A program made the translations under genes and the position numbers. The notes under the pieces were generated by a model. That model worked only from the letters and a program-made list of their open reading frames with translations, was not told the origin of the DNA and searched no databases. Positions 27,858 through 52,341 of a stretch of 54,125 nucleotides of DNA are shown one piece after another. The number at the start of each line of letters is the position of its first letter. The stretch's first letter is position 1. Source of the DNA: a virus (lineage: Duplodnaviria; Caudoviricetes); the IMG/VR virus record IMGVR_UViG_3300048834_001323, positions 1 through 54,125 of that record; one strand, written 5' to 3'.

Positions 27858-29162
27858 ATGCCTCTCGATACCGACATCCCCTATCCCGAAGCGTGCAAAC
27901 AGGCGATCCGTATTTTGCGCTTGCGCGGCGTGCCGCCTGAGCTTTGGCCGGAAGAATACAGTCTGCTCGATTTGTATTACCATGATTCCGGCTCCGGCTC
28001 AGGGAGTGGCTCTGGTTCTTCTTGGACACTGATTTCATCCGGCATCGGCATCGGTGAACCGCGTGACATCGTGACGGGCTTCGACCTGACGCTTCCTTTT
28101 TGGATTCGCTTTGAAGGCGTGCAAGGCTCCGGCTCTGGTAGTGGTAGCGGCAGCGGCTCAGGTAGTGGTAGCGGCAGTGGAAGCGGCTCAGGTAGCGGTT
28201 CTGGTAGCGGCAGCGGCTCAGGTAGCGGTTCCGGTAGCGGTAGCGGCTCTGGCAGCGGTTCCGGCTCCGGCTCCGGCTCTGGCTCCGGTAGCGGCTCTGG
28301 CAGCGGCTCCGGCTCTGGCTCCGGCTCTGGCTCCGGCTCCGGCTCCGGCTCCGGCTCAGGTAGCGGCTCCGGTTCGGGAAGTGGGTCAGGCTCAGGCTGG
28401 AAGGACGACGACGGCGACGGCTGGCCGGATATTCCGGGAGGCGATCCTGACGATGATAATCCTGATGTTGGCGGCTTTATTGGCGATCCATCTGACGACT
28501 GGCCCGGAACTAATGGCGGCACAGGCGGCGATGGTATTGATGATGCGGGAAACACCAGTGCGACTGGATGCAAATACACGCTCTCGGCAAACCCGTTCCC
28601 CGAAGATGGCACCTATACCTATCAGTGGTATCTGGTCAATAACTTCATCAATACGACCATCGGGAGTCCTCCCGATGATTACGTGACGCCCGTAACAATG
28701 GGGACAAGCCAAACGCAAACGGTCGCCATCGCCTGCGGTAGAACGGCGGTTTATCAAGCGGACGTAACGCGCATGAGCGGCGAAACAGAACTTTGCACCA
28801 AGTCCGTCATTAGCCGCGTGATGTGTTCTTGCGGGGATTGTGATTTTGAGGTGACGAGCTTCCCGGCATCCGGCACTAAGGGTTCGTCTATTACAGTTGA
28901 GGGTTCAGGGCTTCAAGACACTTTCCTGTATCTCAACAGTGTGAGCGGGGATAAATTCTCTTCGATTAGCCAGAACACCAGTGACGACAACACTATCTCG
29001 TTTACGGTTCCTTCGACATGGAGCAATGGCTCAGGCTTTACGTCTATACCGAACGACACAGAAGTAACCATTTGGATATACGACAGGCTCGTAAGTCCGA
29101 CCTGCCGTAAGGGCTTCCCCTTCACAATCAACCCCTCCGGCAGCGGCAGCGGTGGCGGCTAA
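27858..29162 (+). CDS. Putative virion protein with poly(Gly-Ser) tract and Ig/IPT-like domains
   Basis: About 45 GS pairs, acidic DxDGDG stretch, C-terminal [20 protein letters not shown]; ATG 27858. Confidence 0.7.
28125..28397 (+). repeat. Gly-Ser codon repeat (91 codons, synonymous variation)
   Basis: GGN-TCN/AGY hexamer repeats with mixed codons. Confidence 0.95.
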
Positions 29163-45589: not shown

Positions 45590-46006
45590 TTACCATTCCG
45601 AATCTAATACGACGCTACCACTTTCCAACATTCGATCAATCTCGGATATAACACAATAACCGCGCCATCCATAAACTTCCTCGCATGATATAAGCTCGCC
45701 GTTATCGTCACGATCCGCAGTCATTGTATAAATGGTGCAATCGGTTAGTGCGCCAACTTCCTCAGGTCTTACAGTTTCAAGCGAAGAGTTTGCCCAATGT
45801 TCTTCTAATAGCGACCAAAGAAGATTATCATCATTTTGCCACATTGACGGGTGCCGTTTATAAGTCGCTTTTTCCTCAGCGATGTATCGGCGTCCTTTTC
45901 CTTTCAATACAATAATCATGCGTTGCTTATTGTAGAGAATTGTGGTGAGCTTGCCGCGCATTATTGTATAATCGGCGTTTTGTGTTGGATTCTTTTCTTT
46001 GTGCAT
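45590..46006 (-). CDS. Hypothetical early protein
   Basis: AGGAAGTAA leader; follows palindrome copy 1. Confidence 0.65.
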   Translation of the reverse strand: MHKEKNPTQNADYTIMRGKLTTILYNKQRMIIVLKGKGRRYIAEEKATYKRHPSMWQNDDNLLWSLLEEHWANSSLETVRPEEVGALTDCTIYTMTADRDDNGELISCEEVYGWRGYCVISEIDRMLESGSVVLDSEW

Positions 46007-46060
46007 TTTGTTACTTCCTATTGCCTAAAGGCACGCCTAAAGGCTAAATTAGATTTTGAG

Positions 46061-46127
46061 TTCTAACACTCACTGCAACGGCGCGCCATTATAAGCAATG
46101 GCGCGCCGCTGAGTGTGAAAGTTAGGT
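46061..46127. repeat. Intergenic attC-like imperfect palindrome, copy 1
   Basis: TTCTAACACTCACTGCAACGGCGCGCC-N12-GGCGCGCCGCTGAGTGTGAAAGTTAGGT. Confidence 0.85.
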
Positions 46128-46136
46128 ATAAGGCGA

Positions 46137-46988
46137 TTAATCTTCTAATGCTATGCAAGCGCATAAAGGAATAGGATAATTACATCCTTTGCACTTTTCG
46201 ACTTTTGCTTTATGACGCCGATTATAGCGCGTCTTTGCCTTATAAGACGATTGATTATCGCCTTTCCAATTATCCGCATTGATGCCGCCATATTCGCGCC
46301 GCGCGATATAATTTTGCAGCTTCGCACTTTTGGAGCTATGATCCGGCGCGCCATATTTTTGATTGATGACGGTATAACCGGCCTTTTCTAATTGGCAAAC
46401 TACTTCCATAGCAATATCGCGCATTGATTCTTTGATATAAGAATCGCGGCAATCTTCAAAAGTATCAGACTCATAAACGTCTTCTGATTCAAAGCCCCAA
46501 CATGAATGGCTATAAGTTTCGCCGTCTTCATCTTCATAATCGCACACGATGCCAAAACATGAGACGCGATCCGTATAAACTTTTTTGATATAAGCGATAG
46601 TTGTTTGGATGTTGGCGGCTATGTTTTCCGCTTGCACTTGCTTGCTCGCGCCCTTATTCCAACCATTGCCCCAATCATCTTTTTTGGCCTTGTCTTTGTC
46701 TATAAGGATAATGGAATATTCGCGCCAACCATCACGCCAAAAATATCCGCGCGCGTCTTCTAATGATTCGCGCAAACTTTCGTTATAAGAGTATGAATAC
46801 TCTTCTTTAGTTGCCGCAAACTTATCGGCGCTGATAACTTCATGTTCATACCCATCATAATCAAACCACTTATAATCCTCATCATGCTCCAGCTTGACAT
46901 TGGCTAAAATGTCTTTGAAGTCAATTATTGCATTGACTTCTTTGGTAATGATCAGCTTGTCTTCTTTGCGTTCCGTTGTTGTGTTCAT
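46137..46988 (-). CDS. Hypothetical early protein (D/E/Y-rich)
   Basis: 283 aa; AGGAAGTAA leader; SCWGF motif. Confidence 0.7.
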   Translation of the reverse strand: MNTTTERKEDKLIITKEVNAIIDFKDILANVKLEHDEDYKWFDYDGYEHEVISADKFAATKEEYSYSYNESLRESLEDARGYFWRDGWREYSIILIDKDKAKKDDWGNGWNKGASKQVQAENIAANIQTTIAYIKKVYTDRVSCFGIVCDYEDEDGETYSHSCWGFESEDVYESDTFEDCRDSYIKESMRDIAMEVVCQLEKAGYTVINQKYGAPDHSSKSAKLQNYIARREYGGINADNWKGDNQSSYKAKTRYNRRHKAKVEKCKGCNYPIPLCACIALED

Positions 46989-47067
46989 TGTCTTACTTCC
47001 TATAAGTAAAATTTTTGTGTCTTACTTCTTACTTCTTACAACTTGCGACCAAAAGAAAAGGCGCGCC

Positions 47068-47343
47068 TATAACTGCGACAGCGGCGCGCCAATAACTGCG
47101 ACAGCGGCGCGCCTATAACTGCGACAGCGGCGCGCCAATAACTGCGACAGCGGCGCGCCAATAACTGCGACAGCGGCGCGCCTATAACTGCGACAGCGGC
47201 GCGCCAATAACTGCGACAGCGGCGCGCCTATAACTGCGACAGCGGCGCGCCTATAACTGCGACAGCGGCGCGCCAATAACTGCGACAGCGGCGCGCCAAT
47301 AACTGCGACAGCGGCGCGCCAATAACTGCGACAGCGGCGCGCC
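47068..47343. repeat. Tandem array, 12 x 23 bp
   Basis: (A/T)ATAACTGCGACAGCGGCGCGCC; only the first base varies. Confidence 0.95.
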
Positions 47344-47356
47344 TATATAACTTCCT

Positions 47357-47767
47357 TTAGCTTGCGAGATAATAATACTCTTGACCTTTATAAGTGATTG
47401 ACGAATAATCATGCAGCAACTCTTTTGCGGCATACTCCCAATCAATACAATAAAAAGGCCATTGATTAGAGTTTGGCATCCCGCAAGTATCTTCCGCTAA
47501 TTCCTGAGCATACTCTTCAAAGTCATCTTCTAAAATCAATGTGACGCCGTGTATAAACTCACTGCCAATCTCTTCAGCGATTGATTCTAATTCCTTTAAC
47601 TCTTCGCCGTCTTTGCTGCTATTCCAGGCCGTTAAAAAGTCTTCGCACTCTTCGCACTCTTCGCAACTATCGCACTCTTCGCGCTCGTCATTCAAGGCAT
47701 CTTCGCGCAAACTTTCTAACTCTTCGATCCGTTCTTTTAATTCTCTTGTGTCAATTCGTGCGTCCAT
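47357..47767 (-). CDS. Highly acidic protein, ArdA-like antirestriction/DNA-mimic candidate
   Basis: Very D/E-rich; FEEYAQELAED..CIDWEYAAKEL..DY resembles the ArdA C-terminal region. Confidence 0.55.
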   Translation of the reverse strand: MDARIDTRELKERIEELESLREDALNDEREECDSCEECEECEDFLTAWNSSKDGEELKELESIAEEIGSEFIHGVTLILEDDFEEYAQELAEDTCGMPNSNQWPFYCIDWEYAAKELLHDYSSITYKGQEYYYLAS

Positions 47768-47809
47768 TGATTTTACTTCCTATAAATAAGATTTGAGTTG
47801 TAAGCGATT

Positions 47810-47877
47810 AGCTAACACTCACGGCAACGGCGCGCCAATATCATATAAAGGCGCGCCGCTGAGTGTGAAAGTTAGTT
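47810..47877. repeat. Intergenic attC-like imperfect palindrome, copy 2
   Basis: AGCTAACACTCACGGCAACGGCGCGCC-N13-GGCGCGCCGCTGAGTGTGAAAGTTAGTT. Confidence 0.85.
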
Positions 47878-47948
47878 TATGGCCTATGGCCTGTAAAGCA
47901 TAAAACGATTCGCGCTATAGTGACTTTGCGCGCTGATATTAAAATGGT

Positions 47949-48611
47949 TTAGCTTGCTAAGTTTGGCGCGCTATCCATTGATTCGACTAATGATTCAATG
48001 TCTACCCAGTAATCAGTGCCGTTTTGATTCTCAAAGTAAACATTTTCGGATTCCATAGCGGCCAAAAGAAGAGAATAGACTTCGCTATCTTCTTTTTGGT
48101 TAAGTTCCTCTTCGCGCTCAGGAAACTTTTTGACAAGCGCGCTAATAAAATCTTCTTTTATATAGCCATTAGTGAAACTTTCATATTGCCATTTTAATTC
48201 TAATTCGCTATGCAAATCTTCATCACATAATGGGTAATCGCACAACTTTTGAAGCAATTCGATCAATTCGTTAGACTCTTCAGTATTGGCGGTTAAAAAA
48301 TCAATACCGATATAAACCGATTCACCGCCATAGCTCCAATTTTCAATCAGAATTGATTCATTATCAGCATAATCACGCTTGAAAAATTCCACGTTTGCGG
48401 CTTGCACACTGCCGTTATGGTAGTCTGAGAATGAGAGAATGTCTAACGCGATATAATCGCCAGCTTGCAATTCGTTTGCACTTTCCACGCGATCATACTT
48501 TGAATAAAGGCCTTCGCGCATAATGTCACACTTTAAGGCCGTTTTACCTGTTACCAATTCCGTTAAAAAATTGGCGTGCTCTGTTGTGAGTTGACTAAAC
48601 ATTTTTTGCAT
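47949..48611 (-). CDS. Acidic early protein
   Basis: 220 aa; SDY..AN..LCDYPLCDEDLHSELE; conserved leader. Confidence 0.7.
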   Translation of the reverse strand: MQKMFSQLTTEHANFLTELVTGKTALKCDIMREGLYSKYDRVESANELQAGDYIALDILSFSDYHNGSVQAANVEFFKRDYADNESILIENWSYGGESVYIGIDFLTANTEESNELIELLQKLCDYPLCDEDLHSELELKWQYESFTNGYIKEDFISALVKKFPEREEELNQKEDSEVYSLLLAAMESENVYFENQNGTDYWVDIESLVESMDSAPNLAS

Positions 48612-48645
48612 TTTTCTTACTTCCTGTAAATTAGATTTAAGTGTT

Positions 48646-48713
48646 AGCTAACACTCACGGCAGCGGCGCGCCAATAATAAGTAAAGGCGCGCCGCTGAAT
48701 GTGAAAGTTAGGA
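48646..48713. repeat. Intergenic attC-like imperfect palindrome, copy 3
   Basis: AGCTAACACTCACGGCAGCGGCGCGCC-N13-GGCGCGCCGCTGAATGTGAAAGTTAGGA; overlaps the stop codon of the upstream gene. Confidence 0.85.
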
Positions 48714-48950
48714 GTAAACTAATTGATCCAGTTCTTTTTGTGGCACTTTGCGCGCAAACTCATAACCGGCTTTTTTAATGTGTCGCGTTGTGGTAGCACT
48801 CCATTTTTCACAAGTTTGGACGAAATCGCCATTTGAAAGTTGCGCCGCTACTGGAGTCTCATAAGAAAACAACACTGTTACGGCAGTTGGCGCGCCTTTG
48901 GGCGTATACGTCAACTCGGTGCAGTTTGGAGCAATTTGTTTAATTCGCAT
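48708..48950 (-). CDS. Small early phage protein
   Basis: VLFSYETPVAA..WSATTTRHI motif; conserved leader; first ORF after the early promoters. Confidence 0.7.
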   Translation of the reverse strand: MRIKQIAPNCTELTYTPKGAPTAVTVLFSYETPVAAQLSNGDFVQTCEKWSATTTRHIKKAGYEFARKVPQKELDQLVYS

Positions 48951-49074
48951 TTTTTTTACTTCCTGTAAATTAGATTTTACGACTAAAGGCGCGCCGCTAA
49001 TCGCAAACGGTTAAAATTCTAAAATCAATTCGCGCCGGTTTCACTTCTCTTTTCTAATCTGTTATTTTATTTAT

Positions 49075-49755
49075 TTATTCCTTTTTGAATTGTGAGTCCA
49101 AAAAGGAGCGCGCCCACTGTAGCGATTAGGTTAGAAAACTAATCGCACGCGCTCATGTTTGCTGATAATCAATCTTTGTGATTATGTTTGGTTCGGACGC
49201 CTTACGGCGCGCTACCATGTCATTATCAGCACTCATGCCACGTTATTATGATTCGTAAACTTTGCATTAAAGAAGTGATATAGAATAACGCTAAACTTTT
49301 GGAATTTTGGCGCGTTAGTTTAGGTTTAATCCATATTATCACGCGTTATTATTCACTGTTAAAAGTCGCATTTTCGCACACTGGGACAAACTTTAGTTTG
49401 TATGCTTTATTGCTATTTTTACGAATCGAATTATCAAGGATCAAACTTTCAAAAAGTATTTTTACGGATAACAGTTTGCTTTATTAGTATCACGGCGCGA
49501 ATTTTCGCGTTTATCCGCTAACATTGCCCCTACACTGCGATCCTAACACTTTATGAAGTTGTGTTTTACGACTTGAGATAATGAGAAATTGAAAAGATTT
49601 TAGCGTTCGCAAGTTTAGAGATAATACAGATTATAGGCGCATTGCCAACTGCGTTATTCATTCGTGCTAATGACTTTATGTGACTTCTTTTCGTTATTCT
49701 CTTTTCTCTTTGGTGCAATGTCAGTTCCGAAAATTTCTTTTCTCGACTGCGATGA
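49075..49755 (-). ncRNA. Candidate large structured non-coding RNA / early leader
   Basis: No credible ORF; more than 12 nested stems including long-range ones; GNRA-capped stem on the - strand; begins at the predicted TSS. Confidence 0.6.
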
Positions 49756-49759
49756 ATCT

Positions 49760-49788
49760 ATTCTATCAGCTATCCGCTTGTGTGTCAA
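49760..49788 (-). promoter_or_regulatory. Strong sigma70-type early promoter, copy 1
   Basis: TTGACA-17 nt-TAGAAT with an A-rich upstream tract. Confidence 0.85.
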
Positions 49789-49869
49789 CTGTTAGAGAAG
49801 ATTTATTTTTCTGATTAGATATTGCCCTGAGGCGTGCTCAACTTCGCTTCTTTCTAATCAGATGAATCT

Positions 49870-49898
49870 ATTCTATCAGCTATCCGCTTGCGTGTCAA
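49870..49898 (-). promoter_or_regulatory. Strong sigma70-type early promoter, copy 2
   Basis: Part of a 59-bp direct repeat (49751-49809 and 49861-49919; one mismatch). Confidence 0.85.
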
Positions 49899-49933
49899 CT
49901 GTTAGAGAAGATTTATTTTATTTCTTTTTTTTG

Positions 49934-50112
49934 GCGCGCGTGCTGATGCTCCAGTGCTGATGACGTGGCGCGCGTGCTGCTGACCATGAGCGCGCGTGCT
50001 GATGACCGAGCAGCGCGCGTGCTGATGACCGAGCAGCGCGCGTGCTGATGACCGAGCAGCGCGCGTGCTGATGACCGAGCAGCGCGCGTGCTGATGACCG
50101 AGCAGCGCGCGT
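49934..50112. repeat. Tandem array, 5 perfect x 23 bp plus degenerate copies
   Basis: GCGCGCGTGCTGATGACCGAGCA at 49990-50104. Confidence 0.95.
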
Positions 50113-50189
50113 TATTCCTTTATATCATGCGACCAAAAAGAAGAGAATTGTGCTTTTTTGCAGCATTTTTTAGCATTTTTCGCGCTTTT

Positions 50190-50515
50190 CTTTTTTGTGC
50201 CGGATTTTGTGCCGCATTTTTCCAAAAAGTGCCGCTTGTGCCAGATTATTTTTTGGGAGTGCCGGATTTTGGTGGGTTGAGTGACTTATTATCAAGGAAG
50301 TTGAGTAAAAATAATCCGGCACTTTTTCGAAAAATGCGGCACAAAGTGCCGGATTCAATGACACGTGCTTTATACTATGTAAATACAAAGTGCCGCTTTT
50401 GACGGATTTTTTTCTTTGATTAAGAGTGCAAAGAAAACAGAAAACACATTAAAATCTTTTTGCTTTTTTATTCACACTACAAAGTGCACTTTGATGCGTC
50501 ACAAGCGGCACTTTC
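50190..50515. repeat. Cluster of GTGCCG iteron-like motifs in both orientations (candidate origin or packaging site)
   Basis: GTGCCG at 50197, 50209, 50229, 50259, 50346, 50390 and CGGCAC at 50317, 50337, 50506, in AT-rich DNA. Confidence 0.65.
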
Positions 50516-50885
50516 TCATTTTAATCCTACTTTGCACGACAATACGCCATTTTTCTATCATAATACAAATTATATTACTTAATGTCTTATTGACTCCCTC
50601 CCTCCCGTCTTTTTTGTTGACCCCACCCCGATCCACAGGCGTGGGCAGGTGCGTAAATATACCGAGGTAACTCCCGAAAAGTTTTCAATATCTAAACAAA
50701 AAAGGAAGAAATAAGCTCGATTCACAACGAAAACCACTTCTTTCTGGTCACGCCCCAATCGAGTTACGACTGAGCCAATAAACATCCACCACAAGCCGCC
50801 TCCGAGCCTCCAACGCGCCCTGGGCCACGACCGAGCCACTATCGCCCTGCCGATCTACAGCCTCCAACCACTCATAGCATTGAAT

Positions 50886-50914
50886 TTGACACTACGAATT
50901 TTCCATGTTACAAT
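50886..50914 (+). promoter_or_regulatory. Sigma70-type rightward promoter
   Basis: TTGACA-17 nt-TACAAT with extended -10 TG. Confidence 0.75.
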
Positions 50915-50922
50915 CCGTTCTT

Positions 50923-51288
50923 ATGAACAACTTCCTCGCCTTTGCCCTCGGCTCCATCATCACCTGCTTCCTTATGCTCGTTCCGGTATGGGTTGATTCA
51001 ATCAAGCGGCAGAAAATCATCGCCGCCGTCACCGACACCTTCATCCCTCTGCGAAACCTGCTCGTGCAGTCCGAGTCGCACCTCTTCCTCATCCGCCAAA
51101 AGCAGATCGAGGACTTGTCCAGCCTCACCGAGCAGGACGGCCTCATCGACCGCTTGGAACAAAAACACGAGCGCATCCAGCAGGACGAACATTACTTTAC
51201 GACCGTCGAAGAAGCTCACCGCGCCGTAGAACGGCTCAAAGAACTCGTCCATCAAGACGAAAACCACCTTCTTTGGCCGCTCGACTAA
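50923..51288 (+). CDS. Membrane-anchored coiled-coil protein, probably near-leaderless
   Basis: N-terminal TM helix; ATG 8 nt after the -10 box. Confidence 0.6.
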   Translation: MNNFLAFALGSIITCFLMLVPVWVDSIKRQKIIAAVTDTFIPLRNLLVQSESHLFLIRQKQIEDLSSLTEQDGLIDRLEQKHERIQQDEHYFTTVEEAHRAVERLKELVHQDENHLLWPLD

Positions 51289-51303
51289 CAGGAGAAAATA
51301 ATT

Positions 51304-52341
51304 ATGATACAAGCAACAAACGACGTAAAACGATTCATGGTGGAAATGGGGCAGAATGTGCGTCTTGTGCCGGATGCCGACATTCCCGCAGTGGAAATGC
51401 AACTGCGCTATGATTTAATTGCCGAGGAAGTCAATCAGGAGCTTCTTGAAGCCATCGCCAACCGCAACCTCGCCTCCATCGCTGACGGCTGCGCTGACGC
51501 CATCTACGTCATTATCGGCACCGCCCTCGCCTTTGGCATTGACCTGTCGCCCATCTGGAACGAGGTGCAGCGCGCCAACATGGACAAGCTGCATGGCCCC
51601 ATCCGCGAGGACGGCAAGCGGCTCAAGCCCGAAGGGTGGCGCGCTCCCGACATTAAGGGGTTGATTGAAGAGCAAGAAAGCCCTGATTACACCGCCTTAC
51701 AAGAAGAGCGATACTTTATCGGTAGCGATGATTCGGGACATAATTACATCGTCCCCACATCGAAATACCGTGAATGGTCTGCGTGGCGCGAAATCTCCGA
51801 AGACAATGAAGAATCGTGGGATGCCCCAGGATGGGCCGAGCGCATTGAAGGCGGATTCACGTTCACCAATCCTGTTGTAGAATCATTACCAAGCCGCAGA
51901 AAACAAAGGAGAAATAACATGGATACAAAGCTATTCAAAAAGTTGGCCGAGAACGCTCGTAAAATCGATTGGGACGAGACTGCCTTGCTCGACAAGCGCG
52001 AGGTCGCCGTCAAGGACGTTGACCTCAATGGTAAAGTCGATGTCGGGACTGTGATTGGCGCGGTGACAGGCAAGCCGGTCAGCCCTATGAGCGCGACCGT
52101 GACTTTCATCGACGGCGGTCAGGAGCGCACCGTTCACGGCACCTTTTGGCCTCGTGACTTTCGCCCCGAATCGGTCAATCTCGATGGCGCGGGCAAAGAA
52201 AACGGCAAAGTCTCTCTCGCTGGCAGCTTTGCTTTCACCGAAGTTGATTTACGCCTGCGCTTTCGGTGGAGCGACCCCGGCAACGCCTTCGTGCATGAGT
52301 TTCTCGTAGAGGGAGAAGTCTCTATCGGGAATTTCCTCTAA
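51304..52341 (+). CDS. MazG-like (PRA-PH) nucleotide pyrophosphohydrolase fused to two further domains
   Basis: LIAEE..EL..IADGCADAIYV..WNEVQRANMDK..REDGK.LKPEGW. Confidence 0.8.
   Translation: MIQATNDVKRFMVEMGQNVRLVPDADIPAVEMQLRYDLIAEEVNQELLEAIANRNLASIADGCADAIYVIIGTALAFGIDLSPIWNEVQRANMDKLHGPIREDGKRLKPEGWRAPDIKGLIEEQESPDYTALQEERYFIGSDDSGHNYIVPTSKYREWSAWREISEDNEESWDAPGWAERIEGGFTFTNPVVESLPSRRKQRRNNMDTKLFKKLAENARKIDWDETALLDKREVAVKDVDLNGKVDVGTVIGAVTGKPVSPMSATVTFIDGGQERTVHGTFWPRDFRPESVNLDGAGKENGKVSLAGSFAFTEVDLRLRFRWSDPGNAFVHEFLVEGEVSIGNFL

What the first reader, a model, noticed from the sequence alone, without database searches (positions are those of the whole stretch)
49075..49755. ~680-nt densely structured non-coding RNA candidate as the first transcript from the duplicated early promoters
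Seen: there is no credible ORF between the promoters and the first gene (48950). On the - strand the region folds into nested stems: CTGACATTGC/GCAATGTTAG enclosing ~190 nt, GAGAAA+GAAAAGA/TCTTTTC+TTTCTC, TTAGC/GCTAA, ATAAT/ATTAT, AACAC/GTGTT, CGGATAA/TTATCCG enclosing CGCGAA/TTCGCG, GATTCGTAAA/TTTACGAATC enclosing ~160 nt, ACAAACT/AGTTTGT, AATAACGC/GCGTTATT, CTAAACT/AGTTTAG, GCTGATAAT/ATTATCAGC enclosing CGCC-GTAA-GGCG (a GNRA loop only on this strand), GAGCGCG/CGCGCTC enclosing GCGATTAG/CTAATCGC, and CCTTTTTG/CAAAAAGG. AATAACG recurs four times. Known: phages encode large ornate RNAs (GOLLD, ROOL). Inference: this is a new or highly diverged large phage RNA made immediately on infection, possibly an anti-defence decoy, protein sponge or antiterminator.
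Basis: partly seen in the sequence, partly recalled or inferred. Interest (0 to 1): 0.85.

Follow-up and report, generated by a model that had tools for sequence, protein, structure and literature searches.

The report
Long untranslated phage early-operon leader
This is a roughly 0.8 kb stretch without genes that sits between two strong early promoters and the first early gene of an uncultivated phage; it is most likely a patchwork RNA leader holding a few real hairpins, not one large ornate RNA.

Summary
All 17 listed stems exist, and one contains a G-U pair. Two near-consensus sigma-70 promoters point into the region. No ORF there carries the phage's stereotyped ribosome site.

"Densely structured" is only partly true. 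The inverted-repeat excess and the local folding signal sit in the last ~160 nt, 49075-49235 (6 repeats vs 0.58 expected, 0/500 shuffles). The other 520 nt are near chance (12 vs 7.5, 35/500; MFE z -1.8). There is no Rfam match.

Metagenome contigs from four runs hold relatives of the region. Blocks of 49236-49762 are kept; 49583-49710 has 2 differences in 128 nt. Other blocks are replaced or deleted. In two relatives, similarity ends at 49235/6.

One hairpin (49386-49401) keeps its loop while 4 of 6 pairs change on both sides. One further predicted pair is compensated and two are broken.

Best reading (0.5): a modular untranslated leader of the early operon with a few selected RNA hairpins and a terminator-like 3' cassette. 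A single GOLLD/ROOL-like RNA is unlikely (~0.1). No RNA data were available.

The parts
49870..49898 (-). Early promoter P1 (TTGACA-17-TAGAAT with TG before the -10)
   Evidence: 11 of 12 matches, extended -10. It lies in the upstream copy of the 73-nt duplication (D4).
49760..49788 (-). Early promoter P2, a duplicate of P1; the inferred start is near 49753
   Evidence: The start site is inferred from the -10 position and was not measured.
49236..49755 (-). Module A: untranslated leader, kept in blocks in related metagenome contigs
   Evidence: pieces: 49236-49295, 49401-49456, 49583-49710 (X1); 49274-49536 (X3); 49235-49391 and 49614-49762 (X4); 49605-49710 (X2). Weak folding signal: z -1.82.
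49583..49710 (-). Most conserved block (2 differences in 128 nt in X1). Purine-rich 5' arm and pyrimidine-rich 3' arm; holds a promoter-like TTGGCA-16-TATTAT at 49648-49621
   Evidence: MFE z -0.27. One X1 contig replaces 49600-49684 with 11 letters but keeps both arms (tables 5c and 8).
49386..49401 (-). Hairpin ACAAAC-UAAA-GUUUGU. In a relative it is AGCGGC-UAAA-GCCGCU, with 4 of 6 pairs changed on both sides and the loop unchanged
   Evidence: table 7 (X1 loose end before 49401) read, gap-free. The hairpin is in the MFE.
49311..49345 (-). Helix CGCGU (49345-49341) / ACGCG (49315-49311) of the MFE; one pair is compensated in X3 and X4
   Evidence: 49315 T>A with 49341 A>T turns A-U into U-A. 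The substitutions come table 3.
49250..49427 (-). Long-range 10-bp perfect pairing GAUUCGUAAA / UUUACGAAUC. Both arms lie inside blocks kept in X1, while the 105 nt between the blocks is replaced by 93 unlike letters
   Evidence: I2; table 5. Two perfect repeats of 10 nt or more against 0.22 expected (17/1000).
49160..49231 (-). Hairpin H1, with an inner GCGCC-GUAA-GGCGU stem-loop
   Evidence: -26.1 kcal/mol, z -3.38.
49098..49154 (-). Hairpin H2 (GAGCGCG...CGCGCUC) followed by C-UUUUU-GG: terminator-like
   Evidence: -22.4 kcal/mol, z -3.16. Not called by the terminator scan; the terminator reading is my inference.
49079..49107 (-). Hairpin H3 (UCCUUUUUGGA / UUCAAAAAGGA); it overlaps the U-run of H2
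   Evidence: -10.9 kcal/mol, z -3.82.
48951..49078 (-). Spacer before gene 1. It holds a half copy of the intergenic hairpin (GGCGCGCC at 48988-48995) and the stereotyped ribosome-site block at 48956-48976
   Evidence: It folds no better than shuffles (48975-49060, z 0.01).
48708..48950 (-). Gene 1 (80 aa, phrog_5643, function unknown), the first ORF of the early operon
   Evidence: Relatives at 38-61% identity in viral and metagenome contigs.

Best explanation
The stretch is the long untranslated 5' leader of the leftward early operon of an uncultivated phage. It is transcribed by host sigma-70 RNA polymerase from two tandem promoters. It is built of two modules.

Module A (49236-49755) is shared in blocks with related environmental phages. 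It holds a few selected small RNA hairpins, one with a conserved UAAA loop and a covarying stem, plus sequence-conserved blocks.

Module B (49075-49235) is three stable hairpins. The middle one is followed by a U-run and looks like an intrinsic terminator or attenuator. Module B travels with gene 1 as a replaceable cassette.

I propose that the leader acts in cis on the early transcript. Its 5' hairpins and internal hairpins would stabilise or process the RNA, and the terminator-like hairpin would gate read-through into the early genes. A ~0.65 kb leader RNA would be a by-product.

Shown: absence of ORFs, promoters by consensus, the hairpins, block conservation, compensatory change in one hairpin.
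Inferred: transcription, termination, and any effect on downstream genes.
For: Promoters P1 and P2 match 11 of 12 positions with an extended -10 and face the region.

No ORF has the (C/T)AGGAAGUAA ribosome site that all five early genes share, and there is no six-frame protein similarity.

Relatives argue against coding. They carry 1-nt indels at 49296, 49330/49333, 49711 and 49721, and their substitutions show no codon periodicity. In gene 1 of X2, 12 of 23 listed changes fall on third codon positions (my count).

The leader is conserved in relatives: 2 differences in 128 nt (X1), 2 in 106 (X2) and 3 plus 2 gaps in 149 (X4), against 28 in 163 for gene 1 in X2.

An X1 contig keeps a leader of similar length even though gene 1 and module B are replaced by 222 letters (table 5).

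Hairpin 49386-49401 has 4 of 6 pairs compensated with the loop kept. Pair 49315/49341 is compensated.

The - strand folds better against its own shuffles than the + strand does: z -4.28 vs -2.64 for the whole region, -4.67 vs -3.14 and -2.84 vs -0.90 in the 3' windows.

The same operon has three ~65-nt intergenic hairpins (-37 to -40 kcal/mol, z -5.6 to -7.6). In two copies a G-U pair would be a C-A mismatch on the other strand, so RNA hairpins are a theme of this transcript.

H2 is stable and followed by CUUUUUGG.
Against: There is no RNA evidence at all. No listed holder run is on record as RNA.

Module A is barely more structured than shuffles: z -1.82 (5/100), inverted repeats 35/500. Its best conserved block has z -0.27, so that conservation is not explained by RNA folding.

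Two predicted pairs are broken in relatives: 49305/49351, and 49692/49591 in three runs.

The covariation rests on one contig of one run and is Watson-Crick only, so it does not tell RNA from DNA or one strand from the other.

H2 is not called by the terminator scan.

13 differences were not shown and no relative sequence could be fetched, so no alignment-based covariation test was run.
Confidence: 0.5

Rival explanations
1. One reading: a discrete, trans-acting large structured RNA of about 0.65-0.8 kb, made first on infection. It would act as a decoy, a protein sponge or an anti-defence RNA.
For: Strong tandem promoters lead straight into it. The whole-region MFE z is -4.28. A terminator-like hairpin sits at its 3' end. 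Parts are conserved more strongly than the neighbouring gene. The next genes include an anti-restriction-like protein (phrog_2059, E 2.9e-7), so an anti-defence context is plausible.
Against: There is no Rfam match. The structure signal is confined to the last 160 nt, where similarity ends in the two relatives that reach it, X1 and X4. Interior blocks are replaced (105 by 93, 126 by 129 letters) or deleted (85 by 11 letters) in relatives, so no conserved global architecture is seen. The conserved block has no folding signal.
Confidence: 0.12
2. A DNA-level control region. It would hold extra early promoters and binding sites for a phage or host protein, as part of the ~2 kb divergent control or origin region that also holds the 23-bp iteron-like array and the GTGCCG repeats.
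For: The leader has 6 promoter-like sites against 2.3 +/- 1.6 expected, 5 of them on the - strand, including TTGGCA-16-TATTAT inside the ~98% conserved block. That block is conserved in sequence without any folding signal. The inverted repeats are perfect Watson-Crick and so are strand-symmetric, and MFE values are nearly equal on both strands (-167.6 vs -168.8). Tandem arrays and repeat clusters lie next to it.
Against: One relative contig deletes 49600-49684, which includes the promoter-like site. No repeated binding motif is significant inside the region. The obvious iteron and repeat clusters lie upstream of the promoters, outside the finding. A hairpin with a kept loop and a swapped stem is more typical of a single-stranded nucleic-acid element than of a duplex binding site.
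Confidence: 0.2
3. Mostly functionless spacer. It would be remnants of exchanged gene cassettes and decayed early genes, and its block pattern among relatives would reflect recent recombination and not selection.
For: The pattern is mosaic with sharp joints at repeated elements. One X1 joint falls at the shared ribosome-site block 48609-48638, and X1 and X4 both break at 49235/6. A half copy of the intergenic hairpin sits before gene 1. Module A is near chance for structure. In a distant relative (L055) duplicated promoter-like repeats lie under 100 nt from the gene 1 homologue, so a long leader is not needed for that gene.
Against: No six-frame similarity to any of the 60 loci then held or to the rest of the window. 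Four compensatory pairs in one hairpin. The leader is kept at similar length in a relative that lacks gene 1. The block identity of ~98% exceeds that of the neighbouring coding gene at 83%.
Confidence: 0.15
4. The stretch encodes one or more very small proteins with atypical start signals.
For: ORFs of 20-50 aa exist on the - strand. A 50-aa TTG ORF (49566-49718) overlaps the conserved block.
Against: No ribosome site like those of the real genes. Relatives carry +1 or -1 indels at 49711/49721 just after its start, and one contig deletes 85 nt of it. No protein similarity.
Confidence: 0.03

Closest known systems
5'UTR-derived non-coding RNA candidates of virulent phages, made by premature termination (Putzeys et al. 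2024, PMC10914365; I read passages of the abstract and sections 18, 20 and 22)
   Same: A promoter is followed by an untranslated stretch and a terminator-like hairpin ahead of the first gene. Sequence is conserved among relatives.
   Different: Those RNAs are mostly under 250 nt and were seen as RNA by ONT-cappable-seq and northern blots. This one would be ~650 nt, has no RNA evidence, and its terminator is only inferred.
Phage T7 early region (recalled from general knowledge; no paper read here)
   Same: Tandem strong host-polymerase promoters, a leader of several hundred nt, stable hairpins between early genes (RNase III sites in T7), and an anti-restriction gene among the first genes.
   Different: No sequence or protein similarity was tested or found. 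Here the genome has two divergent arms. RNase III cutting of the hairpins is untested.
Lambda nut (boxA + boxB) and HK022 put antitermination RNA sites (recalled)
   Same: A small hairpin in the early leader whose loop is kept while the stem covaries, as expected for a hairpin read by a protein or by the polymerase.
   Different: No boxA-like match in the leader: 0 of the 52 window matches at up to 3 mismatches lie in 48951-49900, and the total equals chance. The loop is a 4-nt UAAA, not a boxB pentaloop. No N-like protein was identified.
P4 CI RNA and P1 c4 RNA: immunity RNAs processed from the leader of an early operon (recalled)
   Same: A long untranslated leader with 10-nt segments complementary to each other at a distance of 160-190 nt, which in P4 drive premature termination.
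   Different: No integrase or HTH_3 repressor in the record, which is 67% complete. Processing and pairing in trans are untested. No sequence similarity was tested.
GOLLD, ROOL and other large ornate RNAs in Rfam
   Same: Large size and phage context.
   Different: No match to any of the 4227 Rfam models at gathering score, nor inside the region at E <= 5. No conserved multi-domain architecture among relatives.
PeSL regulatory cassettes that mediate modular shuffling in T4-type phages (PMC2839356, PMC4122927; seen only as search listing and start of abstracts)
   Same: A repeated stem-loop plus expression-signal unit lies between early genes, and the joints of exchanged cassettes fall at these units.
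   Different: The unit here is a hairpin plus ribosome-site block, with no promoter seen in it. The phage is unrelated.

Membership tests
Rfam large structured RNAs (GOLLD, ROOL and all other Rfam 15 families) | Match to the family covariance model at or above its gathering score | tested here: not met
   0 matches in the whole window.: at E <= 5 there are 12 weak hairpin-type matches in 45900-51400, none inside 49075-49755.
Rfam large structured RNAs (GOLLD, ROOL and all other Rfam 15 families) | One conserved multi-helix architecture shared by homologues | tested here: not met
   relatives keep some blocks, replace others with unlike letters, delete 85 nt of the best block, and lose similarity in the 3' hairpins. 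The test is partial, because no full relative sequence could be fetched.
Phage 5'UTR-derived ncRNA by premature termination | Transcription start upstream, with no ORF before the terminator | tested here: met
   By consensus only: promoters; no ORF with a ribosome site.
Phage 5'UTR-derived ncRNA by premature termination | Intrinsic terminator inside the 5'UTR | tested here: inconclusive
   H2 is stable (-22.4 kcal/mol) and followed by CUUUUUGG, but the scan calls no terminator in 48951-49755.
Phage 5'UTR-derived ncRNA by premature termination | An abundant short RNA species sharing the mRNA's 5' end | not testable with these tools
   No holder run on record as RNA.
Lambda-type nut site | boxB-type hairpin with a conserved loop and a variable stem | tested here: inconclusive
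   Hairpin 49386-49401 keeps its UAAA loop while 4 of 6 pairs change. The loop size and sequence differ from boxB as I recall it.
Lambda-type nut site | boxA element near the hairpin | tested here: not met
   no match with up to 3 mismatches inside the leader. The consensus used was recalled.
P4 CI / P1 c4 leader-derived immunity RNA | Segments of the leader complementary to each other at a distance | tested here: met
   10-nt pairs at 49427/49259 and 49724/49527. Two perfect repeats of 10 nt or more against 0.22 expected. As sequence only.
P4 CI / P1 c4 leader-derived immunity RNA | Temperate or satellite lifestyle with RNA-based immunity; processing of the leader | tested here: inconclusive
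   No integrase or HTH_3 match in the 67% complete record. Processing is not testable here.

The most novel reading that the evidence does not exclude
A group of uncultivated phages from wastewater, estuary and sediment samples shares an early leader RNA of 0.5 kb or more that works as an RNA machine and not as a passive 5'UTR. The covarying UAAA hairpin would be a recognition site for a phage or host factor. The leader would then either reprogramme the transcribing polymerase (a nut/put-like antitermination system with no boxA) or be released at the H2 hairpin as a trans-acting early RNA that titrates a host defence or RNA-binding protein.
Probability: 0.13. Interest if true: 0.7.

Novelty: new member of a known kind. 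Interest (0 to 1): 0.4.

Why it matters
Phage genomes are tightly packed, so about 0.8 kb of untranslated early transcript is unusual when related phages keep it at similar length. It marks a place where regulation of the first minutes of infection may be RNA-based. The downstream genes include an anti-restriction-like protein, DNA methyltransferases and a Gam-like protein.

If the covarying hairpin and the terminator-like hairpin act as proposed, this would be a new, sequence-unrelated example of leader-based control of phage early genes. As the evidence stands, it is a candidate with modest support, not a new class of large RNA.

Tried and rejected
**Searches for homologues of the non-coding DNA**
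- blastn against 50,697 phage records: no match. Against 72,556 plasmid records: no match.
- Exact scans: promoter 29-mer in viral contigs, 0. Conserved-block 20-mer in viral contigs, 0, and in genome contigs, 0.
- Hairpin-arm pattern in viral contigs: 19 loci, none similar to the window outside the pattern.
- Ribosome-site 19-mer: 1 locus (L081). It is a chance hit inside coding DNA.

**Protein anchors**
- Gene 2 (220 aa): none in viral contigs or metagenome contigs.
- Gene 1: 11 viral and 31 metagenome loci at 38-61% identity, none in genome contigs. None shares nucleotide similarity with the leader.
- MazG-like protein: 7 loci at 31-39%. Terminase: 11 loci at 23-27%. So no close relative was retrievable.

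**Other checks that gave nothing**
- Six-frame tblastn of 48951-49760 against the 60 loci then held and the rest of the window: nothing below E 0.27.
- tRNA/tmRNA scan: 0.
- Stop-codon recoding: no convincing frame.

**Sequencing runs**
- No RNA holder was listed. The five listed holders are DNA metagenomes with small shares of 0.05-0.06.
- 13 differences were not shown, and parts of the leader have no cover in some runs. This is no evidence either way.

**Considered and dropped**
- A MITE bounded by the 23-nt inverted repeat 49250-49272/49405-49427: no clean target duplication by eye.
- CsrA-type GGA sponge: about 6 GGA by eye against about 8 expected from composition, so no excess.

- The look-up of sequencing runs was busy twice before it answered.
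- Two paper searches failed on term format. The first was re-sent in corrected form.
- Supplements of PMC10914365 were not opened, so its ncRNA tables were not seen.
Full report
**What the window is.** The window is a complete IMG/VR virus record of 54,125 bases, classed as provirus and estimated 67% complete.
- Plus-strand structural genes fill 1-31 kb.
- A minus-strand operon runs from 48,950 down to about 32 kb.
- Plus-strand genes resume at about 50.9 kb.

The minus-strand operon encodes:
- an 80-aa protein of unknown function (phrog_5643);
- a 220-aa protein;
- an acidic 136-aa protein with a weak anti-restriction match (phrog_2059, E 2.9e-7);
- two DNA methyltransferase-like proteins;
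- a Gam-like protein;
- a primase/helicase.

No tyrosine integrase or HTH_3 repressor was found in the record. No close relative exists in the searchable collections. The best terminase match in IMG/VR is 27% identical. The primase/helicase finds only a Microbacterium phage (two records) at 27%.

**Checking the observation.** Sixteen of 17 are exact reverse complements and one has a G-U pair.

The promoter duplication is real. Two 73-nt copies are 90% alike and 110 nt apart. Each carries TTGACA-17-TG-n-TAGAAT with 11 of 12 matches. A third promoter of equal quality faces the other way at 50886-50914.

Between the second promoter and the ATG at 48950 there is no credible ORF. All five early genes checked share a (C/T)AGGAAGTAA block 6-7 nt before ATG, with -4.9 to -5.0 kcal/mol against the anti-Shine-Dalgarno. 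The best candidate in the leader is a 50-aa TTG ORF at -3.5. Reading any one stop codon as sense opens no convincing minus-strand frame. Six-frame translations match nothing in the 60 loci then held or in the rest of the window. No tRNA or tmRNA is present.

**Is the structure more than chance?** As a whole, yes.
- MFE is -167.6 kcal/mol against -140.4 +/- 6.4 for 100 dinucleotide shuffles on the minus strand: z -4.28, 0/100.
- On the plus strand z is -2.64, 1/100.
- Perfect inverted repeats of 7 nt or more within 250 nt number 21 against 9.8 +/- 3.4 (3/500). Only the 681-nt tile holding a tandem array reaches that count elsewhere in the window.

The signal is not spread over the 680 nt.
- In 160-nt windows only 49060-49299 stands out: z -4.67 and -2.84 on the minus strand. 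Windows between 49300 and 49780 lie between -1.4 and +0.9.
- When split, 49075-49235 has 6 repeats against 0.58 expected (0/500). 49236-49755 has 12 against 7.5 +/- 2.9 (35/500).
- 49236-49755 has MFE z -1.82 on the minus strand and -0.79 on the plus strand.
- The four copies of AATAACG are not significant.

So the dense structure comes down to three hairpins in the last 160 nt:
- H1, 49160-49231, -26.1 kcal/mol;
- H2, 49106-49154, -22.4 kcal/mol, followed by CUUUUUGG;
- H3, 49079-49107, -10.9 kcal/mol.

**Known families.** Rfam 15 gives no match in the window at gathering scores. At E <= 5 there is nothing inside the region.

**Relatives.** Searches of phage and plasmid records, IMG/VR, JGI metagenomes and GTDB genomes returned no DNA homologue of the leader.

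The index of public sequencing runs listed five DNA metagenomes (wastewater, sediment, estuary) with small shares. I laid four of them on 48600-49950 at 80% likeness, and they hold relatives.

An X1 contig of 1366 nt matches these pieces:
- 49893-49945 (10 differences);
- 49583-49710 (2 differences);
- 49401-49456 (4 differences);
- 49236-49295 (5 differences);
- the ribosome-site block of gene 2 at 48609-48638 (0 differences).

Between those pieces it carries unlike letters: 310 for our 182, 129 for 126, 93 for 105, and 222 for the 597 that hold H1-H3 and gene 1.

The other runs give:
- X2: 49605-49710 with 2 differences, but gene 1 (48779-48941) with 28 differences in 163;
- X3: 49274-49536 with 24 differences and 2 gaps;
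- X4: 49235-49391 with 14 differences and 2 gaps, and 49614-49762 with 3 differences and 2 gaps. It runs on unlike our sequence before 49235.

A small X1 contig keeps 49685-49711 and 49582-49599 but has 11 letters in place of 49600-49684.

Three things follow.
1. A long leader is a shared feature of this phage group, and parts of it are better conserved than the adjacent gene.
2. It is modular. 49236-49762 is one unit, and H1-H3 plus gene 1 form a cassette that is replaced in one relative and lost from view at the same boundary in another.
3. It is not coding. Relatives carry single-base indels at 49296, 49330/49333, 49711 and 49721, and the substitutions show no codon periodicity. In gene 1, 12 of 23 listed changes fall on third positions (my count).

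**Covariation.** The loose end of an X1 contig just before 49401 aligns without gaps to 49371-49400. The flanks agree. Inside the hairpin ACAAAC-UAAA-GUUUGU (minus strand, 49401-49386) the relative reads AGCGGC-UAAA-GCCGCU. Four of six pairs are changed on both sides, all stay Watson-Crick, and the loop is unchanged. This hairpin is part of the MFE.

In X3/X4 the changes 49315 T>A and 49341 A>T keep a pair of the MFE helix CGCGU/ACGCG. The pair 49324/49331 is kept under one of two equivalent alignments.

Against this, the pair 49305/49351 becomes G-A. The change 49692 C>T, seen in three runs, breaks the outermost pair of GAAAAGA/UCUUUUC unless 49591 also changes, which the output does not show.

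49348 A>G is tolerated only on the plus strand, and 49319 T>C only on the minus strand (my reading).

The arms of the 10-bp long-range pairing 49418-49427/49250-49259 lie in blocks kept in X1, while the stretch between them is replaced. Likewise the purine and pyrimidine arms around 49600-49684 survive a deletion of what lies between them.

Overall, at least one hairpin appears to be selected for pairing. A few long-range stems are compatible with the data, and others are not supported. Thirteen differences were not shown, and no relative could be fetched as sequence, so no alignment-based test was run.

**Context in the operon.** The early transcript carries other RNA-type elements. Three ~65-nt hairpins follow genes 1, 2 and 4, at about 48640-48720, 47805-47885 and 46055-46135. 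They fold at -36.8 to -40.4 kcal/mol with z -5.6 to -7.6. In two copies a G-U pair would be a C-A mismatch on the other strand. Each hairpin is followed by the ribosome-site block. A half copy of the unit lies before gene 1. One X1 joint falls exactly at such a block. This resembles cassette exchange at repeated regulatory units, as described for PeSL elements of T4-type phages (PMC2839356 and PMC4122927, of which I saw only the search listing and the start of the abstracts).

In a distant relative of gene 1 (L055, 41% identity) two promoter-like ~60-nt repeats lie under 100 nt before the gene. There the long ORF-free stretch lies upstream of the repeats. The long transcribed leader is therefore not tied to gene 1.

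**Best explanation (0.5).** This is a modular untranslated leader of the early operon. Host polymerase starting at P1 or P2 would first make an RNA with a 5'-proximal hairpin. For P1 the arms are 49853-49867/49805-49819 (I19). For P2 the helices are 49749-49722. It would then transcribe module A with its few selected hairpins, and then H1-H3, where H2 with its U-run could terminate or pause part of the transcripts before gene 1.

Transcription, termination and any effect on expression are inferences. The closest documented kind is the 5'UTR-derived RNA made by premature termination in virulent Pseudomonas phages (PMC10914365, passages read). Those are mostly under 250 nt and were seen as RNA. 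The overall layout recalls the T7 early region, and the hairpin with a kept loop and a swapped stem recalls boxB-type sites; both comparisons are from memory. No boxA-like element is present in the leader.

**Rivals.**
- A discrete trans-acting large RNA (0.12) is not excluded, but it lacks a conserved architecture.
- A DNA-level role (0.2) fits three observations: the ~98% conserved block that does not fold (z -0.27), the mild excess of minus-strand promoter-like sites (6 vs 2.3 +/- 1.6), and the neighbouring repeat arrays.
- A largely functionless recombination patchwork (0.15) fits the sharp joints. It does not fit the compensatory hairpin, or the conservation that exceeds that of the neighbouring gene.
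- Small proteins (0.03) are contradicted by the indels.

**Verdict.** The stretch is a new, sequence-orphan example of a phage early leader with some RNA elements. It is not shown to be a new large RNA class.

Noticed in passing
window 47060-47347: A tandem array of 12.5 copies of a 23-bp unit (96% matches), each with a GGCGCGCC palindrome, lies inside the early operon between genes 3 and 4. All 22 GGCGCGCC sites of the window lie in 46080-48995, against 2.1 expected. As RNA the array could pair in many registers; as DNA it looks like an iteron or centromere-type array. Function unknown.
   Followed up: partly
window 49954-50112: A second tandem array with the same 23-bp period but a different unit (7.1 copies, 92% matches, GCGCGC core) lies just upstream of promoter P1.
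   Followed up: no
window 50190-50520: A cluster of GTGCCG(G/C) motifs in both orientations, including a 29-nt inverted repeat that is 97% complementary (50206-50234 / 50317-50345). It lies between the divergent promoters and is a candidate operator or origin region.
   Followed up: no
window 48640-48720, 47805-47885, 46055-46135: Three copies of a ~65-nt interrupted hairpin (-36.8 to -40.4 kcal/mol, z -5.6 to -7.6) follow early genes. Each is followed by a stereotyped ribosome-site block. They resemble RNase III-type processing sites or cassette junctions.
   Followed up: partly
window 50886-50925: The rightward promoter (TTGACA-17-TG-n-TACAAT, 11 of 12) ends 8 nt before an in-frame ATG at 50923 of the ORF listed as 50905-51288. 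The mRNA may therefore be leaderless or nearly so. The protein starts with a hydrophobic segment.
   Followed up: no
window 47357-47767: The third early gene encodes a very acidic 136-aa protein with a weak match to an anti-restriction family (phrog_2059, E 2.9e-7; phrog_25535, E 4e-17).
   Followed up: no
L055 3832-3955: In a distant relative carrying a gene 1 homologue, two ~60-nt promoter-like direct repeats sit directly before the gene, and a ~700-nt ORF-free, repeat-rich stretch lies upstream of them.
   Followed up: partly
window 28130-28372: Glycine/serine-type short tandem repeats (periods 6-60) lie inside a 450-aa plus-strand ORF in the structural region.
   Followed up: no
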